Of a DNA stretch of 32,000 bases, positions 14,508-32,000 are shown one piece after another (within the stretch, counting starts at the first letter, position 1; each line of letters opens with the position of its first letter). The notes under the pieces are model-generated. The model had not been told where the DNA came from. It made no database searches and saw only the letters and a program-made list of their open reading frames with translations. This DNA comes from Desulfobulbus propionicus DSM 2032 (lineage in GTDB: Bacteria; Desulfobacterota; Desulfobulbia; Desulfobulbales; Desulfobulbaceae). A program made the translations under genes and the position numbers. The stretch is taken from positions 3,720,001-3,752,000 of the forward strand of contig NC_014972.1 in NCBI RefSeq assembly GCF_000186885.1. The letters run 5' to 3'.

Positions 14508-15121
14508 GTCTCGGCCTCGACCTTCCGTTTCCACGATTTTTCCGTGCCCTTGAGCAGCCGGCCGATGTTCTCCCGGTGCTTGGTCCAGATCATCGCCACG
14601 ATGAACGCCGCCAGGCCCAGCTTCCAAGCCGGGGCATGCAGCAAGGGCAGCCAAAGCAGGATCGAGAGCGAGCCGAGCAGGGAGCCCAGGGAGACAAAGC
14701 CGGAAAGGAAGACCGAGGCAACGAAGACCAGCACACAGCCAAACACCGCCACCGGGGCAAGGCAGAGAAAGGCACCCAGGGCGGTGGCCACGCCCTTGCC
14801 GCCCTTGAAGCGCAGATAGACCGGAAACATGTGGCCCAGCACCGAGGCCGCACCGCACAGGGCGATGATCAGGTCGCGATGCGGGGCGTTCTGGAAGAGC
14901 ATGGCGGTGAGAAACATGGGCACATAGCCCTTGGCGACATCCAGGACCAGGGTCAGGGCGCCCATCTTCTTGCCGAGCAGGCGGGTGACGTTGGTCGCGC
15001 CGATGTTTTTGCTCCCCTCGGTGCGGATATCGATGCCGCTGCGCCGGGACAGCAGCAGGCCAAAGGGAACAGCCCCCAGCAGATAGGACAGAACTATACA
15101 GATAATGGCAAGGCTGTTCAT
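14504..15121 (-). CDS. plsY: Glycerol-3-phosphate acyltransferase PlsY
   Basis: YLLGAVPFG, GSKNIGATN and FKGGKGVAT motifs. 205 aa and hydrophobic. Confidence 0.9.
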   Translation of the reverse strand: MNSLAIICIVLSYLLGAVPFGLLLSRRSGIDIRTEGSKNIGATNVTRLLGKKMGALTLVLDVAKGYVPMFLTAMLFQNAPHRDLIIALCGAASVLGHMFPVYLRFKGGKGVATALGAFLCLAPVAVFGCVLVFVASVFLSGFVSLGSLLGSLSILLWLPLLHAPAWKLGLAAFIVAMIWTKHRENIGRLLKGTEKSWKRKVEAET

Positions 15122-15161
15122 ACGCGTTTGTTATGCGGGTCAAAAAATGACAGGCAAGGCA

Positions 15162-16022
15162 TTAGGCCTTGTTGTGCCGAAAGATCATTTCCAGTTCGCA
15201 GGCCGCGGCATAGGCGCCGATCTCCTCCTGGAGCAGGCGGACATAGGGACAGTCCACCACCGCCAGGAGGGATTGGCGCAGCCGCAGGGCTGGCTGTCCT
15301 TGGTGTTCGACCGATTCGACCACATAGGGAAAGATCTGCGGTCGGCGGCAGACCTCGGGACGGTGCGGGTAGACCCGGCAGCGGCCCGACAGCTCCAGGT
15401 TGGGACAGCGGCTGGCCGTGGGCAGGATCACGCTCCAGCCAGGCTGCCAGTGGATCAGCAGCGGGTCGGTGCGATCGTAAAACTCGCCGTTCGCCACCTG
15501 CAGCGGCGGTTCGTCCCCTGGCCGGCAGGAGCGGGAGGCCGACGTGTCAACCCGCGTGAGCGGGAACAACTCGTGTTCGCCCGGCCGCAGCGGAATCTCA
15601 AACCAGGTCTGGGCCATCTCCGCCTCCGGTCCGACACAGCACAGGACGCAGCCGCAGGGCGCGCACAGCAGGCTGTTGATTCGTTCCAGCTCGCGGGTGA
15701 GCACGCGTTGCGCCACCAGGGCCGTGGTCGCGCTCAGAGCCTCCAACGGCTGGCCGTCGATGTCGATCACCCGTTCCCGGGGCGGCTGGCCGGCCTTGAA
15801 CGCTGCCAGGGGTTGGAGCAGATCGCTGTAGGGCGCCAGGATCGTCGCCGCGTCGGCATAGCAGGCAAAACCGGTCTCGATCTCCGCTGGCAGCTCGGCA
15901 ATCACCTCGTCCACGGTGGCAAAGTCGCCGGTCAGGAACAAGAACTGAACAATCGAGACCAGGGGCAGGACCGGCTGCCGCAACAGGGCACATCCTTCCG
16001 TCAACGCTTCTTTTTCGACCAT
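15162..16022 (-). CDS. YkgJ-family (UPF0153/COG0727) cysteine-cluster protein with a long N-terminal extension
   Basis: CAPCGCVLCC (CxxCGxCC-like) at aa 120-129, then CPNL...GRCRVYPHRPEVCRRP (C.IY..RP..CR..P pattern). GGGAG RBS. The first ~110 aa match nothing I recognise. Confidence 0.55.
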   Translation of the reverse strand: MVEKEALTEGCALLRQPVLPLVSIVQFLFLTGDFATVDEVIAELPAEIETGFACYADAATILAPYSDLLQPLAAFKAGQPPRERVIDIDGQPLEALSATTALVAQRVLTRELERINSLLCAPCGCVLCCVGPEAEMAQTWFEIPLRPGEHELFPLTRVDTSASRSCRPGDEPPLQVANGEFYDRTDPLLIHWQPGWSVILPTASRCPNLELSGRCRVYPHRPEVCRRPQIFPYVVESVEHQGQPALRLRQSLLAVVDCPYVRLLQEEIGAYAAACELEMIFRHNKA

Positions 16023-16205
16023 GTCGCTCCCAGGAAAAGTTTGGCCCGCACCCTACACAAAAAACCGCCGAAAAACAAGCCGCCAGCTCGCCAACCCCGG
16101 CCACGGGGCGCAGACGGCTTTACTTTGGCCCGCAAACTGATTACATAAAAAAACAACTTTCCACCACCCGGAACGGTGCCGCGCACCACCAACCCATCAC
16201 AGAAA

Positions 16206-19515: not shown

Positions 19516-21450
19516 TTACAGATCCTGTGGTTTGACGATCCCGCCTTTGGCGGCCTTGAGTGCCAGCAGACCGGCCTTCTGTTCGGCATAGACGGCAAAC
19601 AGCCGTTCGGACGCGCCCTGTTCCTTGCGCCAGGCGGCTTCCTGCAGATCGATACGCGCAACCACGTTGTCGATGTAGAGGGAGAACTGCATGGTGTAGA
19701 GTGATTCGGGATATTCCTTGTTGATCTTGTCCGTGAACAGCTTCTTCAGATCCTGGTATTGGGGAATCAGGCCGATGGGCGTTTCAATGGCCTGGACATC
19801 GCCATGGGCATACAGTTCGAGCCACCCCAGCCACACATGGACATCCCGCTTTTCCCCGAGCAATCCCGTGCCGCTCCCGCCCCGCGCCTCGTGGGTCAGG
19901 AAGTAGTTGAGTCCGGCCATGACCGGCTTGCGGGTCATCTTGGGGTTGCCGTAAAAGGCCAGCTGGGCATCGAGGTAATCGGTCAACGGCCCGGCGACAA
20001 AGGGGGTATTGGCCCAAGGCTGACGATTGACACCGCTGGCCCCGATCTCGGCGGCCGTGGCCTTGGAAACGATCGAGGCACCGATGGCCACCCCGGCATC
20101 CATGTTTTTCGCCACCCAGATCGGCGGCATGGTGTTGCTGTCGCGACCGGAGTAGGTGATGACCTCGATCACAAGCCCCTTGGGGTCGGCATTGGCGGCC
20201 CTGTTATGGTTGCCCACGGTCTCCGCCCGCAGGGTGCAGCGCGAATTGGGATGGGACATGGGCACGCCGGTCATGTCCTTGGTCCATTTGCCTTGGAAGT
20301 TGACCCCGCTTTCGGCAAGCGGCTCGCCGTCGCCGGTCCACCGCGGCTTACCCTGCTCGTCGATGAGGACGTTGGAAAAGATCACTTCGGCACCGGGCTG
20401 GCGCAAACATTTCATCAGGTAGGGGTCGCCGTCCTGGTTGACATCCTCGATGATGCCGAAGATGCCAATCTCCGGATTGACCGCCCGCAGGGTGCCGTCG
20501 TGCTCGATCCACATCTGGGCGAGGTCGTCGCCGATAAAATCGCTGCCGACCATGGCGGTGGTGGTCTTGCCGCAACCCGAGGGCGCGGCGCCGGCAAAGT
20601 AGGTCTTTCGACCTCCGGGGCCGGTCATGCCGGTGATGAACATGTGCTCGGAAAGTTCCTCACCGTTGCGCTTGTACATGGCGCAGTCGGAGGCAAAACG
20701 GTGATTGCCCTTTTTCATCAGCAGGGTGTTGCCGGCATAGGTGCAGAGAAAGGAAAAGGTGGTCTGCCAGCTGCGGTCCATGTAGATACGGGCCCGGGGC
20801 ACATCCTCGGAACGGTTTGTCCCTTCGGAGTGGACGTTGGTGAAAAATTCGCCCCTGCGAGCCACCTCGGCGTCAAAGTCGGCAAAACAGTTGCGGTAGA
20901 GCAGCTCGGCGGAATGCATCACATAGGTGGAGCTGGAGATCTCGATGGCCGGGATGGAGGCCTGGGCACCCACGGGCCCGCGGCTGTAGAAGCCGACGAA
21001 CATGGTCTTGCCGCGCATGATGCCGCGCATGGTGTCGCGGATGTATGCATGCGACGTTTCCCGCAGCTCTTTTTTGGCCAGGGAGGAAACCTGTTCGTCG
21101 TCATTGACGATATAGAAGGTCTGGTCAACCATACGGCCTTGGTCTTCGGGCAGGTCGAAATGGATGGTGTGGCCGGGGAGAGCCAGCGGTTTTTCCTCTC
21201 CCTTCTCCAAACTCATCCGCCGCACGGTCGCGCAATCCTCTTCGCTGCCGGTATGGATATACACCTGATCAGGATCACACATGGCAATGGCGTTGGCAAC
21301 CTTGAGCAGCGCCTCTTCATTCTTGATCATGGCGAGCCGGCCGCGATGTTCGTTGTCGAGTCGCTGCTCGAACAGTTTCCTGGCCTCATTGATGGACGTA
21401 ACACCGCCAACCGTTGATAAAATATCAACGCCCTTCTTAAACTCCAACAT
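19516..21450 (-). CDS. pckG: Phosphoenolpyruvate carboxykinase (GTP)
   Basis: P-loop GAAPSGCGKTT and FIGDDLAQM. The length matches GTP-PEPCK. Start set at the ATG at 21450, preceded by GGAGGCAGG; the track start at 21504 lies further upstream in an AT-rich leader. Confidence 0.95.
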   Translation of the reverse strand: MLEFKKGVDILSTVGGVTSINEARKLFEQRLDNEHRGRLAMIKNEEALLKVANAIAMCDPDQVYIHTGSEEDCATVRRMSLEKGEEKPLALPGHTIHFDLPEDQGRMVDQTFYIVNDDEQVSSLAKKELRETSHAYIRDTMRGIMRGKTMFVGFYSRGPVGAQASIPAIEISSSTYVMHSAELLYRNCFADFDAEVARRGEFFTNVHSEGTNRSEDVPRARIYMDRSWQTTFSFLCTYAGNTLLMKKGNHRFASDCAMYKRNGEELSEHMFITGMTGPGGRKTYFAGAAPSGCGKTTTAMVGSDFIGDDLAQMWIEHDGTLRAVNPEIGIFGIIEDVNQDGDPYLMKCLRQPGAEVIFSNVLIDEQGKPRWTGDGEPLAESGVNFQGKWTKDMTGVPMSHPNSRCTLRAETVGNHNRAANADPKGLVIEVITYSGRDSNTMPPIWVAKNMDAGVAIGASIVSKATAAEIGASGVNRQPWANTPFVAGPLTDYLDAQLAFYGNPKMTRKPVMAGLNYFLTHEARGGSGTGLLGEKRDVHVWLGWLELYAHGDVQAIETPIGLIPQYQDLKKLFTDKINKEYPESLYTMQFSLYIDNVVARIDLQEAAWRKEQGASERLFAVYAEQKAGLLALKAAKGGIVKPQDL

Positions 21451-21588
21451 CCTGCCTCCGTGGGATTTTCTCTCTGAATTAATAGGGGGGAACTGTTGTA
21501 CCACAGTTGATTACAAGTTTGTAAAATATAATATTTAGCTCGATTTTCCTGAATACGCAAACAAGAATACGCTATTTTTGAGCTTTTC

Positions 21589-21616
21589 CAAAAAAAGACA
21601 GCCGTCCTTTGACGGC
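21589..21616 (-). terminator. Rho-independent terminator downstream of pyk
   Basis: Minus strand reads GCCGTC-AAAG-GACGGC (21616-21601), then TGTC, then a run of 7 T (21596-21590). Confidence 0.55.
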
Positions 21617-21655
21617 AAGAAACTGGGCACAGGGCGGCACACGCACGGCGCTCTC

Positions 21656-23101
21656 TCAACGGATCTCGCGGAGATCGATAATCTCCATCTTGTGGTTCCG
21701 GTGCGGGTTTTCGGGTGACGGCCCTTCAGTCTGGATGATGCAGCTTCCCTTGAGATTGTATTTCAAGGCGTAATCACGGGCAAAATCGGTCCAGTCCGCC
21801 GGGTGATTGATCTCGTAGAGGGGAAAGACCCCGTAGGAAAAGAGCAATTCCCGGCAGGTCTTCTTGTTGGCACTCACCGCCAGAACCCAAGTGGGCAGCT
21901 TGTAGCGCGACAACCGCCGGGCGGTGAGGCCGCTGTCCGTGGGCGCGAGGATGGCGGCCACGGTATCGTTGTGGCTGACGATGGCATTGACGCTGGAGGC
22001 GATGTAATCCACCTCCCGAATCTCGGTATACACCGGGTGTTCGGGCATCTTGCGGTAACTGTGGCGGGTGCGGTGCGGTTCGGTGGCCACGGCGATCTGC
22101 ATCAGCATGCGCACCGCCTCCAGTGGATAACGGCCCATGGCCGACTCCTCGGAGAGCATCACACAGTCGGTGCCGTCGAGAATGGCGTTGGCCACGTCGG
22201 TGGCCTCGGCCCGGGTCGGTCTGCGGTTGTTGGTCATGGATTCGAGCATCTGGGTGGCGGTGATGACCGGCTTGCCGAACAGGTTGGCGCGGGAGGTGAT
22301 CAGCTTCTGCATGATGGCGATCTCCTCGATCGGCAGTTCCACCCCGAGATCGCCCCGGGCCACCATCACGCCGTCCGCCTCGTCCAGGATCTGGTCGATC
22401 TTCTCCAGGATCGAGGCGCGCTCGATCTTGGCAATGACAAAGGGCTGGTAACCCATTGCGGCCGCCGCCTCGCGCACCGCGCGGATGTCGGCGGCATCGT
22501 TGACAAAGGACTGGCTGATGGCGTCCACCCCGTTCTCCAGGGCAAAACGCATGCAATTCCGATCGTGCTCGGTGAAGGCGGAGATGCCCAGATCGATCCC
22601 CGGCAGGTTGAGGCCCTTTTTCGAGCGCAGCTTGCCGCCGACCAGCACGCGGCAATGGACCCGTTCCTCCTCGACCTCTTCCACCCGCACCTGAATCAAG
22701 CCGTCATTGATGAACAACACATCACCGGGCCGCACCGCCTGGGGCAGTTCCTTGAGGGTCACCGAAACCATCGATCGATTGCCCGCCACCTCTTCGGTGG
22801 TCAGGGTGAAACAGTCGCCGATGACCAGCTCGACCGGTTCCACGGCCAGGGTACCGATGCGGATCTTGGGTCCGGGCAGATCGGCCATGATCGCCACCGG
22901 CCGGCTGACCCGCTCCGCTGCCTGGCGAATGCGGCGAATCACCTCGCCGTGCACCCGGAAATCGCCGTGGGAGAAATTGAGCCGGGCAATATTCATCCCG
23001 GCCTCGAGCATTTTCTCCAGCATCTCCGGCGAATCCGAGGCCGGACCGATGGTGCAGACCAGTTTGGTTTTACAGGCGGGCAGAATGGGCGTGTTGTACA
23101 T
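21656..23101 (-). CDS. pyk: Pyruvate kinase
   Basis: KTKLVCTIGPAS, RLNFSHG and MVARGDLGVE motifs. Start set at the ATG at 23101 with GGAG upstream. Confidence 0.95.
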   Translation of the reverse strand: MYNTPILPACKTKLVCTIGPASDSPEMLEKMLEAGMNIARLNFSHGDFRVHGEVIRRIRQAAERVSRPVAIMADLPGPKIRIGTLAVEPVELVIGDCFTLTTEEVAGNRSMVSVTLKELPQAVRPGDVLFINDGLIQVRVEEVEEERVHCRVLVGGKLRSKKGLNLPGIDLGISAFTEHDRNCMRFALENGVDAISQSFVNDAADIRAVREAAAAMGYQPFVIAKIERASILEKIDQILDEADGVMVARGDLGVELPIEEIAIMQKLITSRANLFGKPVITATQMLESMTNNRRPTRAEATDVANAILDGTDCVMLSEESAMGRYPLEAVRMLMQIAVATEPHRTRHSYRKMPEHPVYTEIREVDYIASSVNAIVSHNDTVAAILAPTDSGLTARRLSRYKLPTWVLAVSANKKTCRELLFSYGVFPLYEINHPADWTDFARDYALKYNLKGSCIIQTEGPSPENPHRNHKMEIIDLREIR

Positions 23102-23797: not shown

Positions 23798-25165
23798 ATG
23801 GCCACCCCGAAAAAAGACACCCTGCTCTTCGTCTGCGGCCAGTGCGGTTTTGAAAGCCGCAAATGGCTGGGACGCTGCCCCGACTGCGGCGCCTGGGACA
23901 GCCTGGGCGAACAGCAAAAACCGCTCGTCCTCCGCCCCGGCCGCAAGGCGGCGACAGCCCAGCCGCTGGCGGCTGCCGGGGAGGAAGAGACCGCCCGCCT
24001 GGTGACCAGCATCGGTGAGATGGATCGGGTGCTCGGCGGCGGCATCGTGCCCGGCTCCCTGGTGCTGATCGGCGGCGATCCGGGCATCGGCAAGTCGACC
24101 CTGATCCTGCAGCTGCTCTCGTCGCTGGCGGCCAAGGGGCTCAAGGTGCTCTACGTCACCGGCGAGGAATCGGTGCGCCAGATCCGCATGCGGGCCAACC
24201 GCCTCAACATCGAGGATCCGGCGATTTCCGTGTCCACCGAGAACTGCGTCGAGGCCATTGTCGATCTGGCCGGGACCATGCAACCGGCCCTGCTGGCGGT
24301 GGATTCGATCCAGACGGTGTATAGCGAGGAGGTCGGGTCGGCGCCCGGCTCGGTCACCCAGGTGCGCGAGGCCACGGCCAGGCTGCTGGCCCTGGCCAAA
24401 TCGAGCCATCTGCCGATTCTGCTGGTCGGCCACGTGACCAAGGACGGGGCCATCGCCGGTCCGCGGGTACTGGAGCATATGGTCGATACGGTGCTCTATT
24501 TCGAAGGGGATCGCGGCCAGGTGTTCCGTATTCTACGGACGGTGAAGAACCGGTTCGGCTCGACCAACGAGATCGGGGTGTTCGAGATGCAGGAGAGCGG
24601 CTTGGTCGGGGTGGACAACCCCTCGGCCCTGTTCCTCGCCGAGCGGCCGGTCAATGTGCCGGGGTCGGTGGTGTTGCCCAGCGTCGAGGGCACGCGGCCA
24701 ATCCTGGTCGAGGTCCAGGCCCTGGTCAGTCGCTCCAGTCTGGGCACGGCCCGGCGTACCGCCATCGGCGCCGATCCGCAGCGGCTGGCCCTGCTCACCG
24801 CCGTGCTGGAAAAAAAGCTCGGGGTGACGCTGTTTGATCACGACATCTTTCTCAACATCGCCGGCGGCATCCGCATCATCGAGCCGGCCCTGGACCTGGG
24901 GGTGGTGGCGGCCCTGCTGTCCAGTTTTCTTGAGAAACCGATCGATCCCGGGACCGTGGTCTGCGGCGAGGTCGGCCTGGCCGGCGAGGTCCGGGCCGTG
25001 GGCCAGATGGAGATGCGGCTGCGCGAGGCCGGCCGGCTTGGCTTCAAGACCTTTCTCATGCCGGAATCCTCGACGCGCCAACTGCAGTCCAAGGCCAGGG
25101 AAGGATTGCACCTCCTGCCGGTGCGGACGGTGGCGGAGTTGGCCGACAGCCTGTTTCGCGCCTGA
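23798..25165 (+). CDS. radA: DNA repair protein RadA/Sms
   Basis: N-terminal zinc finger CGQCGFESRKWLGRCPDCGAW, Walker A GDPGIGKST, the KNRFG motif and a Lon-like C-domain. Confidence 0.95.
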   Translation: MATPKKDTLLFVCGQCGFESRKWLGRCPDCGAWDSLGEQQKPLVLRPGRKAATAQPLAAAGEEETARLVTSIGEMDRVLGGGIVPGSLVLIGGDPGIGKSTLILQLLSSLAAKGLKVLYVTGEESVRQIRMRANRLNIEDPAISVSTENCVEAIVDLAGTMQPALLAVDSIQTVYSEEVGSAPGSVTQVREATARLLALAKSSHLPILLVGHVTKDGAIAGPRVLEHMVDTVLYFEGDRGQVFRILRTVKNRFGSTNEIGVFEMQESGLVGVDNPSALFLAERPVNVPGSVVLPSVEGTRPILVEVQALVSRSSLGTARRTAIGADPQRLALLTAVLEKKLGVTLFDHDIFLNIAGGIRIIEPALDLGVVAALLSSFLEKPIDPGTVVCGEVGLAGEVRAVGQMEMRLREAGRLGFKTFLMPESSTRQLQSKAREGLHLLPVRTVAELADSLFRA

Positions 25166-25246
25166 TCGACCCTCGGCATCCGCCCCCCTGCTCCTCCCGA
25201 TGTTCCGCGAGGAGAGGTTCCCGCTGCAACCGCGCCAGCAGTCCGA

Positions 25247-28200
25247 TCACCGCCGGTAGATGCGCACCTCGATCCCGGGTGTGCTCTGCATCTGATTCCA
25301 GCGGCCATCGGCGATATGGACCTTGGCCCGGATCTCGTCACGGGAGCGGAACGGCCGTTCCCGAAGAATGGCATCGGCGAGTTCCTCACCGATGCCGGAA
25401 AGGCCGATCAGTTCGGCGCGGGACATCTCGTTGAGATACACCACCCGTTTGGGGATGGCCCGGGTGGCGTAATGGTCGAGCTGGGTATCGATTTCATTGT
25501 CCACCGTATGCCGTGCCACGCTGGAACCGGCGGCCCCCGAGGACAGCACCTCGTGGGCCGCGCAGTCAAGGGCGACCGGAATGGCCTGCTCGCCTTCGAT
25601 GATGTCGGCCTTGTCCTCGGCATCGGGATTGCCCAGGGCACGCAGGTAGGTGATGTCCGCCTGCCGCGACGGCTGCCCGTAACGGGCCGTGACCACAAAA
25701 TTGACGGTTTTCAGGTTGCGCGCCTGGGCCTGGGCCGCTGTCGGCGTACTGTAGGCCCCCTCGGTGCCGTTCACCGCCAATTTGACGAATTTTTCGAACC
25801 GGTTTTTATGGTCGCTGTTGGCGGCCTGGGTCAGCGGAGTAAGGTTGTCCCAGGTGTTGCCCGGACCGCCGAGATTGTCGTTGAGCAGATGCCCCTTGAT
25901 GTAGTAGACCCCTTCCCCCTGCTTGCGTTTGCTGATCTTGCCCCACAGGGGATTGCCCATGTCGCCGGAAGAGGGGGAACTGCCATTGGCATGGATCGGG
26001 GTCAGACGCATGACGCTGGCCGAGCCGCCGAAGCCGTTCACTCTGCCGCCGTACACCGGTGGAGTGGAAGCGGTGATATCGACCGGCATGAACCGTGCCG
26101 TGGCATCGGCAAGACGGGCCAGCAGACCGTCAATGATGTCGGCGTGGTTGGTGGTGGCGGCCGGACCTCCTCCGGGTCCCGGGGTGGGGTTGTCGGTGCT
26201 GGCGGTGACGATGGCGGCATCCAATTCGGTGGCGACCTGGACAGCCTGCTGCTTGTCACCCTGCTTGTCCGGCGGCACCTCGACCGTGCGAAGGAAATCC
26301 TGATACGGTGTCGGCGCGGAAGCCATCATCACCCTGGCAGAGCGGCCGCTGCCCTGAATATAGAGGCTGTGCCGTCCGCCGCCCGCCTGAAACTCGCGTC
26401 GTGCCCGCCACCAGTCCCGGAGACGGGCCACGCCCCGCCGAACCGCCGCCGTGCCCCGCCGCACCATGGCGATCACCGCCCGCCCCAACCGCAGGGCCCG
26501 GTCGATCAGCCAGTCGACCGCTCCGGTCACCCGCTCCCTGAGCCCACCGAGAATCTCCCGCAGCCGCTGCGACAGTCGGCCCAGACCGGCCTGGTTGGCG
26601 AGAAAACCGATGGCGATCGGCAGGGCGCTTGCCAGGGCGCTCTCGACAAAACCGGCCGCCTCGCCGATGGCGCCCCGGGCGATGCCGCCGATGCCGTCCA
26701 GCACCCGGGAGACGATCTCCAGCATCTGCCGCAGGTACTGCATGAACGACTCGATGGCCCGATAGATGGCGATCAGGGTATTGATCACCGGCATGATGCC
26801 GGTGACGTCGAGCAGGGAGAGCAGCCAGCGACTGGCCCAGCCGATCACCCGCTCGGTGATGAAGCCGGTCACGCCCTGCACGACCGTGTCCCACAGGTTG
26901 GACAACCGCTCGCTCACCTCCCGCCACAGCCCGGCCGGGCCGTCATTGATCAGGGTGGCGACAAACGACCACACCCCGGTGGCGATCTCCAGCATCGAGC
27001 GCAGCCGGGCAACGATGGCCGGATCGATGCGCCGTTCCAGGCGGGCAAAGATGGTGTCCCGGGTCAAACCAAGGACATCGAGGACAAAGCCCAGGACCGA
27101 GCGCAGGGAAAAGTCGGCCGGCGGGTTGATGCCCGCCTCGCGCACGGTGGCGAACAGCCAGTTGGTGAAGCCGGCCAGCAGATGGGTGCCGATATTGCCG
27201 AAGAAGCGGGTGAACCCGGCCCCCATGGCGCGCAGCAGGTTGGCGAGAAACCCGAGCGGATCGGTGAGGATGGCGCCAATGGCGCCGGCGGCCTTAGCCA
27301 AAATCTGCACCACCAGTTGCGCCGGCACATTGAAAATGCGCAGCACCGCCTGGAAAAAGGCCCAGGCCGCAGCGGCGAGGTCACCGTCGACAAAGATGCG
27401 GCGCAGGATGCCCAGCGCGGTCTGCTGCACCCGGGGCCAGAGCTCGGGGTCGGAGAAGAACTGACCGAACACCGGAATCCGGGCCAGGATCTGGTTCTTG
27501 ATGAAATTTTCCACCGGCTCGCGGATGCAGCGCGGCACCCGCTGCCAGATCGAATTGAGCACCAACAGCGGCAGCTGCAACAGGTCGCCAAAGATGGTGA
27601 TCACCTTGCGCACCGTGTCCAGCACCAGTTCCAGAAAGGGGGTGAGCGCATCGAAGCCCTGCACCAGCCAGGTGAACAGCACCGCCACCTTGTCGCGCGC
27701 CCAGGCGAGCAGGCTGGTGATTCCCTCTTCCAGCCAGGTGAAGGCCCCGGCCAGCCAGGACAGCAAATCGCTGGCCCGCAAGCGCCCGATTAGACCACTG
27801 ACCAAGGCGCCGACCCCGGCGATCCGTTCGCCCAGCCACTGGCCGGCGCCGACAATGATCCGCCGCACCGTGGCGATGATGTTCTGCACCGACGGCAGCA
27901 CCGAGGCCAGGGTGTCGCGTGCCGCCGGTACCCCGTCGCCGCCGTCCATGCCCGAGGCGGCGGTGTCCAGTTCGCCTGAAAGCTGCTGGGCTTGCTCGCC
28001 CATCTCGCGGACAAAGGCGGGTGGAATCAGTTCGGCCACCCGTCCGGCAAACTCAGCCACCGGCTGCCACACCGGCCGCGTTTGCGTTTTGACCCAATCC
28101 CAGGCCTCGCCCGCCTTGCGGCTGATCCAGCCGAGCACCCCGCCCTGGCTGCCGGTGCTGTCCTCACCCTCGGAGGAGCCGAACAGCAGGTCCTTGAACC

Positions 28201-29371
28201 AGTTCCATACCCGCGCGGCTGCCTCGCGCACCGGCCGGATCCATTCCCAGAAACGGCGACCCAGATCCTGAATCCCTTCCCAGACCGCGCCGCCAAATTC
28301 GCGCAGCCACTGCACCGCCGGGGCACCGAAGTTGGCCCACAGGTCGCGGAAGAAATCCCCCACCGGCTGGAGGAACTCGGTCAACTTGTTCCAGGCCACG
28401 CCGGCGGTCTCGACCACAAAGGTCTTCATGTCGTTGATGGCGGCCATCAATGGCTCGCACCGGCCCGAGGCCAGGCCGCTGGCGATGGCGGCGGCGCGCT
28501 CCACCAGGCCGGCGAAGAAATCGATCAGCTGGCGCGGCCCGTCAAAGGGCACCAGGGCCCGCAGGGTGCCGATGAACCCGTCCCAGGCCCGGGCCACCTG
28601 GCGGCCGAGCCAGGTGAGGATGCCCTCGTCGACGATGGCGCGCACGGTGCGGGCAAATTCGGGGGAAATGGTTTCCAAGAGCCGCCAGCCGAACTCGCGG
28701 ATCTTGTCCACCGCCCAATCGGCAATGTCGCCCAGGGTCTCGACCGCGCCATGGTAGAGATCGCTCCAGAAGCCGCGCCGCACCGGCTGCTGTTCGACAC
28801 TGCTGGTCTCGCCGCGTTGCTGGGCCACATGGGCCAGTTCGTGGGCAAGGAGAAAACGGCCGGCAGCGGTTTCGGGTTGATAGTATCCCCGGTTGAAGGC
28901 GATATGGTCGCCGATGGTGAAGGCTTGAGCGTACAGGGTTTCGTTGAGCCTGATGGCGCGCGGATCGGTATGCAGGCGGATCGCGCCCAGATCCATGCCG
29001 AAACGGGCCTCCATGTCGGTGCGCAACGGCGGCGGCAGGGGATCGCCGCCACTTTGCAGGGCCGTGATCTCGCGCTCGATGGATTCGGGCAGGGATTGTT
29101 CTTCTTCGGGAGGATGATGCACCCCCTCGTGATCCCCCGAGGGTGAGAGGGCGCACCGGATCGCCGCACGGTTGACGGAGGCGGTTGCAGTCCCACTGGC
29201 CTCCCCGGCCGCCGCCATCTTCCGGCCTAGGGCTTTGGCGGCAATGCGGTCGGCCTGCTGCTCGGCCTCGTCATGCGCGGCGCCCAGCTTGAGTTTGGGC
29301 CGCACGCCGGCGGGCACACGGACCGGCGGCCTATGGGCCGGCTGTTTCTGGACGAGCGCGGCGGTCAGCAT
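25247..29371 (-). CDS. 1374-aa multidomain DUF4157 (HExxH) protein with an HNH/EndoVII-like motif and a ComEA-like HhH tail; putative toxin/effector
   Basis: DUF4157 signature at aa ~108-186: PLPPPLRTDMEARFGMDLGAIRLHTD...AFTIGDHIAFNRGYY...GRFLLAHELAHVAQQ (HELAH at nt 28829-28843). YYIKGHLLNDNLGGPGNTWDNLTPLTQAANSDH at nt 25808-25894. LNEMSRAELIGLSGIGEELADAILRERPF at nt 25352-25435. The ATG lies 17 nt after the upstream stop, with a GAGGGGG RBS. Confidence 0.8.
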   Translation of the reverse strand: MLTAALVQKQPAHRPPVRVPAGVRPKLKLGAAHDEAEQQADRIAAKALGRKMAAAGEASGTATASVNRAAIRCALSPSGDHEGVHHPPEEEQSLPESIEREITALQSGGDPLPPPLRTDMEARFGMDLGAIRLHTDPRAIRLNETLYAQAFTIGDHIAFNRGYYQPETAAGRFLLAHELAHVAQQRGETSSVEQQPVRRGFWSDLYHGAVETLGDIADWAVDKIREFGWRLLETISPEFARTVRAIVDEGILTWLGRQVARAWDGFIGTLRALVPFDGPRQLIDFFAGLVERAAAIASGLASGRCEPLMAAINDMKTFVVETAGVAWNKLTEFLQPVGDFFRDLWANFGAPAVQWLREFGGAVWEGIQDLGRRFWEWIRPVREAAARVWNWFKDLLFGSSEGEDSTGSQGGVLGWISRKAGEAWDWVKTQTRPVWQPVAEFAGRVAELIPPAFVREMGEQAQQLSGELDTAASGMDGGDGVPAARDTLASVLPSVQNIIATVRRIIVGAGQWLGERIAGVGALVSGLIGRLRASDLLSWLAGAFTWLEEGITSLLAWARDKVAVLFTWLVQGFDALTPFLELVLDTVRKVITIFGDLLQLPLLVLNSIWQRVPRCIREPVENFIKNQILARIPVFGQFFSDPELWPRVQQTALGILRRIFVDGDLAAAAWAFFQAVLRIFNVPAQLVVQILAKAAGAIGAILTDPLGFLANLLRAMGAGFTRFFGNIGTHLLAGFTNWLFATVREAGINPPADFSLRSVLGFVLDVLGLTRDTIFARLERRIDPAIVARLRSMLEIATGVWSFVATLINDGPAGLWREVSERLSNLWDTVVQGVTGFITERVIGWASRWLLSLLDVTGIMPVINTLIAIYRAIESFMQYLRQMLEIVSRVLDGIGGIARGAIGEAAGFVESALASALPIAIGFLANQAGLGRLSQRLREILGGLRERVTGAVDWLIDRALRLGRAVIAMVRRGTAAVRRGVARLRDWWRARREFQAGGGRHSLYIQGSGRSARVMMASAPTPYQDFLRTVEVPPDKQGDKQQAVQVATELDAAIVTASTDNPTPGPGGGPAATTNHADIIDGLLARLADATARFMPVDITASTPPVYGGRVNGFGGSASVMRLTPIHANGSSPSSGDMGNPLWGKISKRKQGEGVYYIKGHLLNDNLGGPGNTWDNLTPLTQAANSDHKNRFEKFVKLAVNGTEGAYSTPTAAQAQARNLKTVNFVVTARYGQPSRQADITYLRALGNPDAEDKADIIEGEQAIPVALDCAAHEVLSSGAAGSSVARHTVDNEIDTQLDHYATRAIPKRVVYLNEMSRAELIGLSGIGEELADAILRERPFRSRDEIRAKVHIADGRWNQMQSTPGIEVRIYRR

Positions 29372-29388
29372 GGCGCCCGATCACCCCC

Positions 29389-30555
29389 TCAGGTCCGATA
29401 ACCGAAAAAGTAGTACAGCAGAACGCCGCACCAGGCGCGGGTAAACTCGGTTTTGCCGTTGTCGTTCCAGAAATTGGCCATGATATCGGTTTCATAACCC
29501 GGTAGATCGATACTGCCGAGCGAGGGCACGTCGATATACTTGTCGTCCAGCCCCATCATGTGCCCCACTTCGTGGGCAACCACCAGCGGGGCGGCATCCG
29601 CGGCCCAGCGGCCCGTGCTCCAAGGATCGCGTCCCCAGCCGGAATATTGGACAACAGAACGAAATCCATTCTGTTCGACAAAGACCGCATTGGATTCAGG
29701 CACCATGGCCTGCATGAGTCGGCTGTCGGCAAAAAGCGGATAGGCCTTGGCCGTGACGTGGATCTTGGCGTCGATGGTCATCCCTTTGAGTTTCAGCTGC
29801 CGGTTCCACTGCTTTTCGATATCGCTCGCCCATTTCGAAGCCAGGGTGGCACTGGATCGGGAACCATACAGGCCGAGACTGAAATACAGGTCAATCCCGC
29901 TTTTTTTCACGGTGATCCGATCGATCTTCCGTTTGAGCTCCTCCCGTCCCTGTTCCTGCTGCACCACATGCGCCAGTTCATGCGCCAGCAACCGCCGCCC
30001 TTCCTGGGAATGGGGACGGTATTCCCCCGCGCCGAAATAGACCTCGCCGCCGGTGGTGAAGGCCCGGGCCGAAAGACCGGCCGCCAACCGCGCCGCCGCG
30101 TCATCGGTATGGACGCGTACCCGGCTCAGGTCGGTACCGAGTCGAGGTTCGAAAAAGGCCCGTTCGCGGCCGGGCAGCGGATGACCGCCACCGCGACCAA
30201 GCGCGAGGGGCTGGCCATCGGCAGAGGTGGCCGTTGTTCCCGGCACGGCCTTGCGGCGCACCTCTTCCTCCTGGTCGTTTTCCGCCCCGGGCCGCTGCCG
30301 CTCTTCCTCGTCGATCGGCACCGTGTCCGCCGCCTTGCGTTGGATCGGTCCATCGTGCATGGCCAGCACCCGGTCGGCAACGCTATCGGCCTCGTGCTCC
30401 AGGTGGTCATCGGTGGAACCGATGCGCAACTTGGTCTGCACCGGACTCTCGAGGGCCTCGCGCAGACTGGTGCGGTTGACCTCGATTCGGGTCGGCCGGA
30501 TAACCGCCAGACGGCGGGCTCGGTGCTGCCTGCGGATATGCTGGAAGGATTTCAT
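29389..30555 (-). CDS. 388-aa DUF4157 protein with a second, metzincin-like zinc-peptidase domain; putative toxin/effector
   Basis: DUF4157 signature: HPLPGRERAFFEPRLGTDLSRVRVHTD...AFTTGGEVYFGAGEY...GRRLLAHELAHVVQQ (HELAH at nt 29968-29982). C-terminal VVAHEVGHMMGLDD (nt 29542-29574), then TDIMA 25 aa later. AGAGGAGG RBS. Confidence 0.8.
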   Translation of the reverse strand: MKSFQHIRRQHRARRLAVIRPTRIEVNRTSLREALESPVQTKLRIGSTDDHLEHEADSVADRVLAMHDGPIQRKAADTVPIDEEERQRPGAENDQEEEVRRKAVPGTTATSADGQPLALGRGGGHPLPGRERAFFEPRLGTDLSRVRVHTDDAAARLAAGLSARAFTTGGEVYFGAGEYRPHSQEGRRLLAHELAHVVQQEQGREELKRKIDRITVKKSGIDLYFSLGLYGSRSSATLASKWASDIEKQWNRQLKLKGMTIDAKIHVTAKAYPLFADSRLMQAMVPESNAVFVEQNGFRSVVQYSGWGRDPWSTGRWAADAAPLVVAHEVGHMMGLDDKYIDVPSLGSIDLPGYETDIMANFWNDNGKTEFTRAWCGVLLYYFFGYRT

Positions 30556-30591
30556 GGCGACCTCCTCTTTATCCTAATGAATCGTGCACGG

Positions 30592-32000
30592 TCAAAACGG
30601 TAGCGGCACCAGCTCGATCAGCACGTTGCCGGTCGAGGCCAACCGATTATGTCTCACCGTGCTGGCAAGCACATCATTGCTGGTGTAATTCTCAAGCAGA
30701 TTGCCCGTGAAGGTGGCCCGGTCGCCGATGACCGATCCCATCCAGTCGGCATCCAAGGCGGCGCGAAACCAGGTATTGCCCTGACCGATAAAGACGGCCG
30801 CCACCACCGTGGTGCCATACCCGCTAAAGCTGTTGCCGGTCAGCATCAGCCGGGCGTAACCGTTCACCCGCTGGTTGAGCACCCGGTTGGTGCCCACCGA
30901 GCCTGGCGGCAGATTGGCCTTGATCGCCGTGATCCGGTTGTGGTCGATGTGCAGGTCCTCGCCGCCGCTGAGGACCGCGTTGCCCTCCAGGGAGAAGTTG
31001 ACCACCCCCGCGTCGGGGTTGCGGTAGCCGGACACGCCGTTGGCGAGCAGCAGCCAGCCGTCGATCTCGCTCCCGGCCAGCACGCCGCCAACCTTGGCGC
31101 TTTCCAGGCGCAGGGCATAGTCGGGCTCGTAGCTGATCCAGTTGGCGACCAGATCCTCAATGGCCGCCACCGCCTCGTTGACGGTGATGCTATCGGCGGC
31201 CAGGACCTCGGACATGGTGGCGGTCGTCGGCTTGGGCGCCCGCATGGCTACCGCCTTGGGTGAGGCCACCTGCTCGAGCTTGGTCCGCCAGGTGGTGCGG
31301 ATATCCTTGGGCAGGACGATGATCTGCTTCGCTACCTTGACCAGGGCCTCGTCAAAGGCGACCTTGTTGTCCAGCAGTTCCTCCTTGCTCAGACCAAGCA
31401 GGGCCTCGCTGATGACGTTGTTGCCCACCACCTCGACCCCGACCCACTCATTCCCACTTGACGAGACAACCTTCCGCTGAGCATAGAGCTGATTATTTTG
31501 CCAATCGAGACGGCAGACCGTGTTGCCCCGACCGCCGAGACTGATCATCGCCGGGCCGTTCGCCGTGGTGCTGGTGCGGGCGATACGGCAACCGGTGGTG
31601 CGGGAGAGGGCGGCCCGGATCGCCAACTGCCCGGCACGTTTGGCGAAGTCGAGCGTCAGGTTCTCCAGGATCACCTCATCGGCCTCGATACGCCAGGTGT
31701 CGCCGCCAAACAGAATGGTCACCGATTCAGGTCCCTGACCGCTGATCCGCAGGCTGCGCTTATCGGTGATCGCCGGCAGATCGCCCAACGCGTAGACGCC
31801 GCCCCGAAGGCAGAGCCACAGATCACTGGCGGTGGATTGGGCAAATTCCTCCAGCAGCACCGCCAGATGACCGGGGGAGGTCACCATGACCGCGCAGCCG
31901 CCGGCCGCCTTGTCGCACAACACCTTGAGCGCATCCTGGACCGTGACCACCGATTCGGGCAGCAGATCGCTGCACAGGCCGATGTCGCCCTTGTCGAGCG
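30592..32000 (-). CDS. Hypothetical protein with parallel-beta-helix-like GN repeats; 5' end probably beyond the window
   Basis: The track starts at a GTG (31950), but the frame stays open to nt 31998 (LDKGDIGLCSDLLPES precedes it). A recurrent [LF/V]xGNx[VLF] motif appears at least 6 times: GRGNTVC, VVGNNVI, LEGNAVL, LTGNSFS, FTGNLLE and STGNVLI. It lies 36 nt upstream of the DUF4157 gene on the same strand. Confidence 0.6.
   Translation of the reverse strand, partial: LDKGDIGLCSDLLPESVVTVQDALKVLCDKAAGGCAVMVTSPGHLAVLLEEFAQSTASDLWLCLRGGVYALGDLPAITDKRSLRISGQGPESVTILFGGDTWRIEADEVILENLTLDFAKRAGQLAIRAALSRTTGCRIARTSTTANGPAMISLGGRGNTVCRLDWQNNQLYAQRKVVSSSGNEWVGVEVVGNNVISEALLGLSKEELLDNKVAFDEALVKVAKQIIVLPKDIRTTWRTKLEQVASPKAVAMRAPKPTTATMSEVLAADSITVNEAVAAIEDLVANWISYEPDYALRLESAKVGGVLAGSEIDGWLLLANGVSGYRNPDAGVVNFSLEGNAVLSGGEDLHIDHNRITAIKANLPPGSVGTNRVLNQRVNGYARLMLTGNSFSGYGTTVVAAVFIGQGNTWFRAALDADWMGSVIGDRATFTGNLLENYTSNDVLASTVRHNRLASTGNVLIELVPLPF

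What the first reader, a model, noticed from the sequence alone, without database searches (positions are those of the whole stretch)
25247..29371. 1374-aa protein with DUF4157 head, ~900-aa helical/hydrophobic body, nuclease-like domain and HhH tail
The order seen in the translation is as follows. First a ~100-aa low-complexity leader, then DUF4157 (aa ~108-186). Next comes a very long Ala/Leu/Gly/Trp-rich region with no recognisable enzyme motif, which contains several long hydrophobic stretches. Examples are AKAAGAIGAILTDPLGFLANLLRAMGAGFTRFFGNIGTHLLAGFTNWLFA, VTGIMPVINTLIAIYRAI and ALASALPIAIGFLANQAGL. A putative nuclease and a DNA-binding tail follow. The hydrophobic stretches could be membrane-insertion or translocation segments, as in self-translocating toxins. 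I know of no characterised protein with this full architecture.
Basis: partly seen in the sequence, partly recalled or inferred. Interest (0 to 1): 0.75.

Follow-up and report, generated by a model that had tools for sequence, protein, structure and literature searches.

The report
Injection-system nuclease toxin with tape-measure-like body
This 1374-residue protein is the last gene of a phage-tail-like contractile injection system in a Desulfobulbus genome and is most likely the DNA-cutting cargo that the machine carries in its tube, an architecture already described in Streptomyces and Algoriphagus, so it is a new member of a known kind and not a new type of toxin.

Summary
The ORF and its domain order are real. 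It has a disorder-prone leader (aa 1-107), a DUF4157/eCIS_core domain (aa 111-188), an all-alpha body of about 830 aa, an EndA-type nuclease (catalytic H1161, N1176 and N1185 conserved) and a ComEA-like helix-hairpin-helix tail.

The gene closes a complete contractile injection system (CIS) operon, of which the window holds only the last 2.5 genes. It is paired with a 388-aa DUF4157-zincin protein that shares its head.

This architecture is published. Examples are Tme of Streptomyces davawensis (DUF4157, tape-measure-like helices, EndA-like nuclease), the AlgoCIS tube-lumen cargos Cgo1/Cgo2, and the "very long linker" toxins of Geller 2021.

The body is not a linker:
- It is a conserved module found in about 4,800 protein clusters.
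- Its length barely varies.
- It evolves as slowly as a baseplate protein, while the C-terminal toxin is swapped or diverges.

Its match to phage tape-measure HMMs largely survives sequence reversal, so homology to tape measures is unproven. Its hydrophobic helices are amphipathic and are not membrane-grade.

The most likely mechanism is that the protein is loaded through its N-terminal head into the tube lumen, lies there as extended helices, and is ejected to degrade DNA. A double role as the system's ruler remains open.

The parts
25247..29371 (-). Whole ORF, 1374 aa: CIS cargo/effector and last gene of the CIS operon.
   Evidence: One search lists the ORF. One search finds the exact protein on a contig downstream of baseplate genes. 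One search shows the full cluster in a strain whose copy of this protein is 98% identical over the first 320 aa compared.
29051..29371 (-). N-terminal leader, aa 1-107. It is disorder-prone and carries the conserved motif KLKLGxxxDEAExQADRIA. Inferred loading signal.
   Evidence: Composition is. The motif is conserved in the family consensus and shared with the neighbouring 388-aa protein. In AlgoCIS the equivalent NTD is required for loading.
28808..29041 (-). DUF4157 / eCIS_core domain, aa 111-188, with an intact HELAH motif (H177, E178, H181).
   Evidence: Pfam E 3e-28. Residues checked. H, E and H are nearly invariant in the family.
27392..28804 (-). Body part A, aa ~190-660. Long Trp-rich amphipathic helices (up to 73 residues) modelled with low confidence. 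Tape-measure-like texture.
   Evidence: AF2. An 11-residue hydrophobic periodicity has z 7.3, and W-W spacing of 11 has z 4.2. PHROG tape-measure hits are, with the reversed-sequence caveat.
26312..27391 (-). Body part B, aa ~661-1020. Conserved helical domain ending in a small beta element.
   Evidence: pLDDT is 70-85. It aligns with Erythrobacter P0109 at E 5e-42 and with Streptomyces P0108. Length between aa 489 and 749 is 260-261 in all 51 homologues.
26060..26311 (-). Pro/Gly/Thr-rich linker with two helices, aa ~1021-1104.
   Evidence: Sequence. It has the lowest pLDDT of the C-terminal model and is poorly conserved.
25487..26059 (-). Beta-beta-alpha-Me non-specific nuclease domain, aa ~1105-1295. 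Family-invariant residues are R1149, G1160-H1161, N1164, N1176, N1185 and E1193.
   Evidence: Model pLDDT 90. Foldseek matches EndA 3owv, NucA 4qgo and EndoG. Invariant columns are and residue numbering.
25250..25474 (-). ComEA-like helix-hairpin-helix DNA-binding tail, aa ~1300-1374. Present only in the Desulfobulbus clade and a few other homologues.
   Evidence: Matches 2duy with TM 0.74, rmsd 1.8 A and 30% identity. HHH_3 E 2e-05.
29389..30555 (-). Partner gene, 388 aa. It has the same leader motif and DUF4157, plus a C-terminal zincin-like HEVGH motif (Cgo1-like).
   Evidence: Pfam. The shared head is 36% identical over 175 aa, E 7e-22.
30592..32000 (-). C-terminal 469 codons of the 1042-aa DUF6519 protein that follows the baseplate genes. 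The frame is open to the end of the window.

Best explanation
The protein is the large cargo/effector of a contractile injection system (CIS), a phage-tail-like machine.

Shown:
- The gene is the last in a CIS operon. The order is sheath, tube, cap, AAA+ ATPase, tube initiator, spike, gp25, baseplate, DUF6519, a small DUF4157-zincin protein, then this gene.
- It shares its N-terminal head with the small partner.
- Its C-terminus has an EndA-type nuclease fold with conserved catalytic residues, plus a ComEA-like DNA-binding tail.
- Its ~830-aa helical body is a widespread, length-constant module that evolves at the pace of a baseplate protein.
- In the wider family the C-terminal domain is exchanged for deaminases, Ntox15 and other nucleases.

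Inferred by analogy with AlgoCIS Cgo1/Cgo2 and Streptomyces Tme:
- The disordered leader is recognised with the help of the operon's AAA+ ATPase.
- The protein is threaded into the inner-tube lumen.
- The body lies there as extended helices, possibly tethered to the spike complex through the DUF4157 head.
- On sheath contraction the protein is expelled into the target, or released from the producer. There the nuclease, held on DNA by the HhH tail, degrades DNA.
For: Context:
- The exact protein lies downstream of the 399-, 989-, 571- (Tail_P2_I), 1042- (DUF6519) and 388-aa (DUF4157) genes.
- The full cluster, with sheath, gp19 tube, Pvc16_N cap, AAA, CIS_tube, Phage_base_V and gp25, is seen in a strain whose copy of this protein is 98% identical over the first 320 aa compared.
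- The Desulfobulbus homologue P0005 is likewise preceded by gp25, baseplate, Tail_P2_I and DUF6519 genes.
- The homologues examined in Alkalilimnicola, Erythrobacter and Streptomyces, and three metagenomic relatives, all lie next to CIS genes.

Head:
- It is shared with the neighbouring protein.

Body:
- It is found in 4,810 representative clusters at E<=1e-3 and matches as one stretch of about 800 aa.
- Length between aa 237 and 1019 is 775-807 in 51 homologues.
- Mean pairwise identity is 65.7% for the body, 68.4% for the co-encoded baseplate protein and 44.7% for the nuclease.

C-terminal exchange:
- 140 tails fall into 35 clusters, including APOBEC-like, Ntox15 and NS_2 domains.

Literature:
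- DUF4157 as an eCIS toxin marker with long linkers (PMC8213781).
- Cgo1/Cgo2 fill the tube lumen (PMC8894135).
- The NTD and the AAA+ ATPase are needed for loading (bioRxiv 10.64898/2026.05.27.728243).
- Tme architecture and nuclease activity (PMC11126660).
Against: - There is no experimental data for this protein or for any Desulfobulbus CIS.
- The window contains only the last 2.5 genes of the cluster. The rest is inferred from contigs that carry the identical or a near-identical protein.
- The body model has low confidence (pLDDT 63.5, pTM 0.38) and matches nothing in the PDB.
- DUF4157 is dispensable for loading in AlgoCIS, so its role here is unknown.
- No immunity gene follows the nuclease. 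There is an 81-nt gap and then convergent radA. This is unusual for an antibacterial nuclease, though common among eCIS toxins.
Confidence: 0.72

Rival explanations
1. The protein is the system's tape measure as well as its toxin. The helical body sets tube length during assembly, as a phage tape measure does, and the nuclease is a passenger on its end.
For: - No other long helical protein is encoded in the cluster. The unassigned proteins are a 341-aa Pro/Gly/Ser-rich disordered protein, a 263-aa Zn-ribbon/DUF6760 protein and small ORFs, and none hits a tape-measure PHROG.
- The body length is nearly invariant, and the body evolves like a structural protein.
- In Erythrobacter a distant homologue (E 5e-42 over body part B) sits between the AAA+ gene and the tube-initiator and baseplate genes. 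That is where Tme sits, in a cluster otherwise syntenic with the Desulfobulbus one.
- There is an 11-residue hydrophobic and Trp periodicity.
- Tape-measure PHROGs and BFVD tape measures are the nearest things found.
Against: - The PHROG matches largely survive sequence reversal (1e-8 versus 1e-10) and the BFVD matches are not significant (E>=0.18). Homology to tape measures is therefore unproven.
- AlgoCIS has both a separate tape measure (Alg14) and DUF4157 cargos.
- With the published eCIS coefficient of about 0.22 nm per tape-measure residue, 830-1374 residues would predict unusually long particles of 180-300 nm.
- In this locus the gene is not in the tape-measure position.
- eCIS tape measures are poorly conserved, so one could be hidden among the unassigned ORFs.
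Confidence: 0.22
2. The body, especially part B, is a membrane-insertion or translocation device. After ejection its amphipathic or hydrophobic helical hairpins enter the target's membrane and carry the nuclease across.
For: - The most hydrophobic segments (aa 684-702, 849-869, 906-925) are conserved across the family and lie in the best-folded part of the body.
- The body is strongly amphipathic (hydrophobic moment z 10.7).
- A nuclease delivered to a diderm target must still cross the inner membrane.
- Sle1-C and Tme are predicted to have TM hairpins, and Sle1-C partly localises to membranes (PMC13277306; PMC11126660).
- Phage tape measures are proposed to form channels.
Against: - No window approaches the hydrophobicity of an inserting helix. 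The best is +4.8 kcal/mol on a crude scale, there is no charge-free 17-mer, and conserved D, K, E and N lie inside the segments.
- There is no fold match to pore formers. The SmhB and ExbB matches have E>=5 and prob<=0.04.
- No dedicated TM predictor was available.
- The same helices could simply be the buried core of a helical bundle.
Confidence: 0.25
3. The DUF4157 domain is an active zinc protease that cuts the protein, or its partner, to release or activate the nuclease after delivery.
For: - The HExxH motif is intact and nearly invariant (H177, E178, H181).
- Geller 2021 proposed roles in toxin maturation or release.
- A flexible Pro/Gly-rich linker precedes the nuclease.
Against: - In AlgoCIS the toxicity of Cgo1 was independent of the HExxH motifs, and DUF4157 was dispensable for loading.
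- No protease activity has been shown for any DUF4157 domain.
- No solved structure relative was found by sequence.
Confidence: 0.15
4. It is a free-standing secreted polymorphic toxin unrelated to the CIS, and lies next to it by chance.
For: The architecture, a conserved N-terminal part with a variable C-terminal toxin, is that of polymorphic toxins in general.
Against: - Every context examined is CIS-linked, across Desulfobulbus, Gammaproteobacteria, Alphaproteobacteria, Actinobacteria and metagenomes.
- The gene is operonic with CIS genes, with 17- and 36-nt gaps and no promoter-like site.
- DUF4157 is highly specific to eCIS loci.
Confidence: 0.03

Closest known systems
Tme (BN159_7576), the tape-measure-related effector of the Streptomyces davawensis CIS (Nagakubo et al. 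2024, PMC11126660)
   Same: - N-terminal DUF4157.
- Long helical region with predicted hydrophobic helices and tape-measure-like character.
- C-terminal EndA-like beta-beta-alpha-Me nuclease (RGH/KGH plus Asn residues).
- Largest ORF of its CIS cluster.
- No immunity gene described.
   Different: - Tme is 2247 aa, sits immediately upstream of the baseplate genes, and belongs to a different host phylum.
- This protein is 1374 aa, sits at the 3' end after the baseplate and DUF6519 genes, has an extra HhH tail, and is paired with a small DUF4157-zincin protein.
- Direct sequence homology to Tme was not tested.
- A distant homologue in Erythrobacter does occupy the Tme-like position.
AlgoCIS cargo proteins Cgo1 (498 aa) and Cgo2 (1228 aa) of Algoriphagus machipongonensis (Xu et al. 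2022, PMC8894135; PROCIS preprint 10.64898/2026.05.27.728243)
   Same: - A tandem pair of one small and one large DUF4157 protein that share a disordered NTD and DUF4157 but differ in their CTDs.
- The small partner has a metalloprotease-like CTD.
- An AAA+ ATPase is encoded in the same cluster.
   Different: - AlgoCIS is a subtype Ib eCIS with its own tape measure (Alg14).
- The function of the Cgo2 CTD is unknown, and its homology to this body and nuclease was not tested.
- Lumen location is shown there and only inferred here.
Sle1/Sle2 of the Streptomyces lividans SLP (PMC13277306)
   Same: - An effector with a long coiled coil and a helical globular domain with predicted hydrophobic hairpins.
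- It depends on a DUF4157 protein.
- It is packaged in the particle.
   Different: - In Sle1/Sle2 the DUF4157 is on a separate protein (in trans), and Sle1 has no nuclease.
- A Streptomyces relative of body part B (P0108) with DUF4157 in trans was found. It could not be equated with Sle1, because the published Sle1 peptide is not conserved in it.
eCIS-associated toxins with N-terminal DUF4157 and a very long linker (Geller et al. 2021, PMC8213781; Danov et al. 2024, PMC11297309)
   Same: - DUF4157 at the N-terminus and a toxin domain at the C-terminus.
- More than 800 aa between them.
[quoted passage not shown]
- Often no immunity gene.
   Different: Those papers treat the middle as a linker. 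Here it is a conserved domain family, length-constant and slowly evolving.
Phage tail tape measure proteins
   Same: - Long all-alpha, Ala/Gly/Leu/Trp-rich sequence with 11-residue periodicity.
- Nearest PHROG and BFVD matches.
- Likely location inside a tail-like tube.
   Different: - No Pfam or NCBIfam tape-measure domain.
- The HMM matches largely persist when the sequence is reversed.
- Not in the tape-measure gene position in this locus.
- Carries a DUF4157 head and a toxin.
EndA (S. pneumoniae) and NucA (S. agalactiae) DNA/RNA non-specific endonucleases; ComEA HhH domain
   Same: - Fold of the C-terminal 270 aa.
- Catalytic His and metal-binding Asn.
- HhH DNA-binding module.
   Different: - Sequence identity is only 13-14% to the nucleases.
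- Pfam scores are below the gathering cutoffs.
- Here the domain is fused to a CIS delivery scaffold and is not a secreted or membrane-anchored enzyme.

Membership tests
DUF4157-type eCIS-associated toxins (EATs) | Pfam PF13699 (DUF4157/eCIS_core) domain near the N-terminus | tested here: met
   aa 111-188, E 3e-28, 98.2 bits against a cutoff of 22.
DUF4157-type eCIS-associated toxins (EATs) | Encoded within or next to a CIS operon, typically at its 3' end | tested here: met
   It is the last gene after the baseplate, DUF6519 and small DUF4157 genes, on a contig carrying the exact protein. The full cluster is seen in a strain whose copy is 98% identical over the first 320 aa.
DUF4157-type eCIS-associated toxins (EATs) | C-terminal toxin domain | tested here: met
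   EndA/NucA/EndoG fold. H1161, N1176 and N1185 are invariant.
DUF4157-type eCIS-associated toxins (EATs) | Toxicity on expression, or delivery by the particle | not testable with these tools
   Needs experiments.
Tme-like tape-measure-related CIS effectors (Nagakubo 2024) | Largest ORF of the CIS cluster, with DUF4157 at the N-terminus | tested here: met
   1374 aa against the next largest genes of 1042 and 989 aa.
Tme-like tape-measure-related CIS effectors (Nagakubo 2024) | Conserved synteny: gene immediately upstream of the tube-initiator and baseplate genes | tested here: not met
   Here the gene is at the 3' end, and the slot between the 78-aa ORF and the CIS_tube gene is empty. A distant homologue in Erythrobacter does occupy that slot.
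Tme-like tape-measure-related CIS effectors (Nagakubo 2024) | Remote homology of the middle region to phage tape measures | tested here: inconclusive
   PHROG tape-measure hits reach E 1e-10, but the reversed sequence scores 1e-8 and shuffles score nothing. BFVD hits are not significant.
Tme-like tape-measure-related CIS effectors (Nagakubo 2024) | C-terminal EndA-like nuclease with DRGH and H-N-N motifs | tested here: met
   The top fold hit is EndA 3owv. The motif is IKGH here and VRGH in the family consensus, with invariant Asn residues.
Tme-like tape-measure-related CIS effectors (Nagakubo 2024) | Sequence homology to Tme itself, and a sheath in the same clade | not tested
AlgoCIS Cgo1/Cgo2-type tube-lumen cargo | Disordered NTD followed by DUF4157 and a variable CTD, with the pair of cargos sharing NTD and DUF4157 | tested here: met
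   The leader is 68% disorder-promoting residues. The head is 36% identical over 175 aa to the 388-aa neighbour.
AlgoCIS Cgo1/Cgo2-type tube-lumen cargo | AAA+ loader (Alg15/Pvc15-like) in the same cluster | tested here: met
   A 448-aa WHD+AAA protein is encoded in the cluster. More distant relatives sit directly after the AAA+ gene.
AlgoCIS Cgo1/Cgo2-type tube-lumen cargo | Physical location in the inner-tube lumen and release on contraction | not testable with these tools
   Needs cryo-ET or mass spectrometry of particles.
Phage tail tape measure proteins | Match to curated tape-measure models (Pfam or NCBIfam) | tested here: not met
   No such hit for the whole protein or for slices, even at E<=5.
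Phage tail tape measure proteins | Protein length determines tube length | not testable with these tools
   Body length is conserved, but particle lengths are unknown.
DNA/RNA non-specific endonuclease (beta-beta-alpha-Me; PF13930/PF01223) | Pfam score above the gathering cutoff | tested here: not met
   19.6-22.6 bits against a cutoff of 27. Several homologues do pass in the precomputed annotation.
DNA/RNA non-specific endonuclease (beta-beta-alpha-Me; PF13930/PF01223) | Fold, with the catalytic His and metal-binding Asn in place | tested here: met
Integral membrane or self-translocating toxin | Segments hydrophobic enough to insert as TM helices | tested here: not met
   There is no charge-free 17-mer and the KD19 maximum is 1.79. 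The best 19-residue window scores +4.8 kcal/mol on a crude Hessa-type scale taken from memory. A dedicated predictor was not available.

The most novel reading that the evidence does not exclude
The ~830-aa body is a previously undefined domain family present in thousands of CIS loci. It acts as the tape measure or lumen scaffold of a whole lineage of injection systems that lack a separate ruler. These machines would then build their tube around their own toxin, and the conserved part B would act after ejection as the device that takes the variable toxin across the target membrane.
Probability: 0.15. Interest if true: 0.65.

Novelty: new member of a known kind. Interest (0 to 1): 0.4.

Why it matters
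The protein is an uncharacterised representative of a very large family of CIS cargo proteins, found in sulfate reducers, Betaproteobacteria, Gammaproteobacteria, Verrucomicrobia, Acidobacteria and Actinobacteria.

The useful point beyond classification is that the "linker" between the DUF4157 head and the toxin is a conserved, length-constant module with no Pfam model. It evolves like a structural part of the machine. That makes it the obvious candidate for whatever couples large toxins to the tube, whether as a lumen scaffold, a ruler or a translocator.

Because the C-terminal domain is naturally exchanged, the module could also serve as a chassis for loading engineered payloads into CIS particles.

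Tried and rejected
1. PHROG tape-measure hits as proof of homology. Rejected after a control: the reversed sequence hits the same families at E 1e-8, while two shuffles hit nothing. The signal is sequence texture.
2. Pfam and NCBIfam on the whole protein and on four slices. Nothing was found for the body.
3. PDB sequence searches with the C-terminal region and with a family profile. No relatives were found.
4. Foldseek of the body model against the PDB gave nothing with E<2.8. Against BFVD tape measures rank first but with E>=0.18. The model itself has low confidence.
5. Classical TM helices. Not supported by the hydropathy measures.
6. Looking for another tape measure in the cluster with Pfam and PHROGs and by reading the ORFs. 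None was recognised, which is not proof of absence.
7. Equating the Streptomyces relative P0108 with Sle1 through the published antigen peptide. No match, so it was left open.
It was replaced by local HMMs and clustering and a scan of 10 tails.
9. Cluster-member names for ten representatives added little beyond Acidoferrales and Streptomyces labels.

Full report
**Observation.**
The ORF at 25247..29371 on the minus strand is real and encodes 1374 aa. It has a good ribosome-binding site and lies 17 nt after the stop of the upstream gene.
- The leader, aa 1-107, is disorder-prone: 68% disorder-promoting residues and no Trp.
- DUF4157, now named eCIS_core in Pfam, covers aa 111-188 at E 3e-28.
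- The body of about 830 aa has no Pfam or NCBIfam match, whole or in slices. AlphaFold2 predicts it as almost entirely helical.
- The C-terminal region is weak by sequence: Endonuclea_NS_2 scores 19.6-22.6 bits and HHH_3 22.4-24.9 bits, both against cutoffs of 27. It is clear by structure. A model with pLDDT 90 matches EndA of S. pneumoniae (3owv, prob 1.00), NucA, EndoG/CPS-6/EXOG and, for the last 70 aa, a ComEA-related HhH protein (TM 0.74, rmsd 1.8 A).
- In an alignment of 36 homologues, R1149, G1160-H1161, N1164, N1176, N1185 and E1193 are invariant. The beta-beta-alpha-Me active site is therefore intact.

Positions 1-25165 of the window hold housekeeping genes: mnmA-like, radical-SAM enzymes, cinA, recA, aconitase, MatE, MTHFR, fmt, larC, pgpA, PEPCK, pyruvate kinase and radA. 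The last 6.8 kb hold three co-directional genes.
- The first is the C-terminal 469 codons of a DUF6519 protein whose frame runs off the window.
- The second is a 388-aa protein with DUF4157 and a zincin-like HEVGH motif.
- The third is the 1374-aa protein.

A contig carrying the identical 1374-aa protein shows, upstream, genes of 399, 989 (Baseplate_J), 571 (Tail_P2_I), 1042 (DUF6519) and 388 aa.

A strain whose copy of this protein is 98% identical over the first 320 aa shows the whole cluster. That contig also carries Despr_3264 of Desulfobulbus propionicus DSM 2032. The gene order is:
- sheath
- gp19 tube
- a DUF6760 protein
- a 341-aa protein
- Pvc16_N cap
- AAA+ ATPase
- a 78-aa protein
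- a CIS_tube-like initiator
- a Tail_X-like protein
- a 383-aa protein
- Phage_base_V spike
- gp25
- baseplate genes
- DUF6519
- the two DUF4157 genes
.

The protein is therefore the terminal gene of a contractile injection system operon. Convergent radA starts 81 nt after its stop, so no immunity gene follows.

**Comparison with the literature.**
- Geller et al. defined DUF4157 as an eCIS core domain found at the N-terminus of toxins, "in many cases" with a linker of more than 1000 aa, at the 3' end of operons and often without immunity genes (PMC8213781).
- In AlgoCIS, two tandem DUF4157 proteins fill the inner-tube lumen and are released on contraction. They are Cgo1 (498 aa, metalloprotease-like CTD) and Cgo2 (1228 aa) (PMC8894135). 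Their shared disordered NTD and the AAA+ ATPase Alg15 are required for loading, and DUF4157 is dispensable (bioRxiv 10.64898/2026.05.27.728243).
- In S. davawensis, Tme has DUF4157, predicted TM helices, coiled coils, a tape-measure-like region and an active EndA-like nuclease. It co-purifies with the spike and tube initiator (PMC11126660).
- The window's pair mirrors Cgo1/Cgo2. The two heads are 36% identical over 175 aa, including the leader motif KL(K/R)(L/I)G...D..E.(Q/E)AD. The large protein mirrors Tme in architecture.

The claim that no characterised protein has this architecture therefore does not hold.

**The body.**
Four results show it is a domain family and not a linker.
1. A phmmer search of 1.84 billion cluster representatives finds 4,810 relatives at E<=1e-3 and 2,532 at E<=1e-30. 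Each typically matches as a single stretch of about 800 aa, down to 30% identity.
2. Among 51 homologues at 44-92% identity, the distance between aa 237 and 1019 is 775-807 residues, and between aa 489 and 749 it is 260-261 in all.
3. The body is the best-conserved part of the protein. In 120 genome pairs its mean identity is 65.7%, against 68.4% for the co-encoded 399-aa baseplate protein, 56% for the head and 44.7% for the nuclease. The genome pairing rests on equal contig lengths and is therefore inferred.
4. In the wider family the C-terminal domain is exchanged. 140 tails fall into 35 clusters, including APOBEC-like deaminase, Ntox15 and other NS_2 nucleases. Only 72 of 146 representatives keep this nuclease and 9 keep the HhH tail.

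The body splits in two.
- Part A (aa ~190-660) has very long, Trp-rich helices with low model confidence.
- Part B (aa ~661-1020) has shorter helices at pLDDT 70-85 and a small beta element. Part B is what the most distant relatives share.

**Is the body a tape measure?**
The evidence is mixed. Tape-measure PHROGs are the top hits (E 1e-10, 12 of 16 families). BFVD tape measures are the top structural neighbours but are not significant. Hydrophobic residues and Trp show an 11-residue periodicity (z 7.3 and 4.2).

The control is sobering. The reversed body hits the same PHROGs at E 1e-8, while shuffles hit nothing. The HMMs are therefore reading amphipathic-helix texture and not residue order, and I do not claim homology.

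Gene context gives an independent hint. In Erythrobacter donghaensis a distant homologue (E 5e-42 over part B) lies between the AAA+ gene and the tube-initiator and baseplate genes. This is the position reported for Tme, and the cluster is otherwise syntenic with the Desulfobulbus one, where that slot is empty. Three other distant relatives also sit directly after the AAA+ gene. No other helical tape-measure candidate is visible in the Desulfobulbus cluster.

Against a ruler role, AlgoCIS has both a tape measure and DUF4157 cargos. The published coefficient of about 0.22 nm per tape-measure residue would also predict very long particles.

**Is the body a membrane translocator?**
Hydropathy peaks are modest. 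A crude insertion-energy sum, using scale values from my own memory, gives +4.8 kcal/mol at best. The region is strongly amphipathic. This fits soluble helices that might become membrane-active, as proposed for Sle1-C and Tme. It fits the core of a helical bundle equally well, and no fold match supports a pore former.

**Verdict.**
The finding is a correct description of a real, large protein, but the interpretation needs reframing. It is a CIS-delivered nuclease effector of the DUF4157 class, closest in architecture to Tme and in gene arrangement to Cgo1/Cgo2. It is a new, uncharacterised member of that kind. Its particular features are a ComEA-like tail, a 3'-terminal position in the operon and no immunity gene.

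The part worth further work is the conserved body module. Its role as lumen scaffold, ruler or translocator is open and directly testable.

Noticed in passing
window 29389..30555 (-): A 388-aa protein with the same leader motif and DUF4157 as the large protein, plus a C-terminal zincin-like HEVGHMMGLDD motif. It is the likely Cgo1-type small cargo partner.
   Followed up: partly
window 30592..32000 (-): The C-terminal 469 codons of a 1042-aa DUF6519 protein that always sits between the baseplate genes and the DUF4157 genes. Its function is unknown, it may be fibre-like, and its frame is open to the window end.
   Followed up: partly
L003 2248..4066 (+): Between the tube and cap genes lie a 263-aa Zn-ribbon/DUF6760 protein and a 341-aa Pro/Gly/Ser-rich, apparently disordered protein. 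Neither resembles a helical tape measure, so the cluster has no obvious ruler.
   Followed up: partly
L005 14357..14734 (+): In Alkalilimnicola ehrlichii a 125-aa ORF follows the homologous nuclease protein by 10 nt on the same strand. It is a candidate immunity gene. Nothing equivalent exists in the window, where convergent radA starts 81 nt after the stop.
   Followed up: no
L006 10001..14803 (+); also L008, L009: More distant relatives of the body module sit directly downstream of the CIS AAA+ ATPase gene. In Erythrobacter the gene lies between the AAA+ gene and the tube-initiator gene, which is the tape-measure-like slot.
   Followed up: partly
L007 8984..13879 (+): A Streptomyces relative (P0108, 1292 aa) has a Lys/Ala-rich coiled coil, body part B and a deaminase-like C-terminus (HAE...PCxxC) but no DUF4157. 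A separate 242-aa DUF4157 protein is encoded just upstream, so DUF4157 is supplied in trans.
   Followed up: partly
PHROGs tape-measure families (phrog_58, 305, 1272, 1535, 4200): These HMMs match the reversed body sequence almost as well as the forward one (E 1e-8 versus 1e-10). Tape-measure annotations based on such hits alone should be treated with caution.
   Followed up: yes
window 21001..22000: GC content dips to 0.54, against about 0.65 elsewhere, around the interval between the PEPCK and pyruvate kinase genes.
   Followed up: no
window 4779..5516 (-) and 15105..16148 (+): ORFs of 245 and 347 aa in the housekeeping part of the window have no Pfam match.
   Followed up: no
window 24900..32000: The scan found 10 terminator-like hairpins against 3.8 expected. 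Most lie inside coding sequence, so they are probably a composition effect of this GC-rich DNA and not signals. No sigma-70-like promoter was found in the interval.
   Followed up: no
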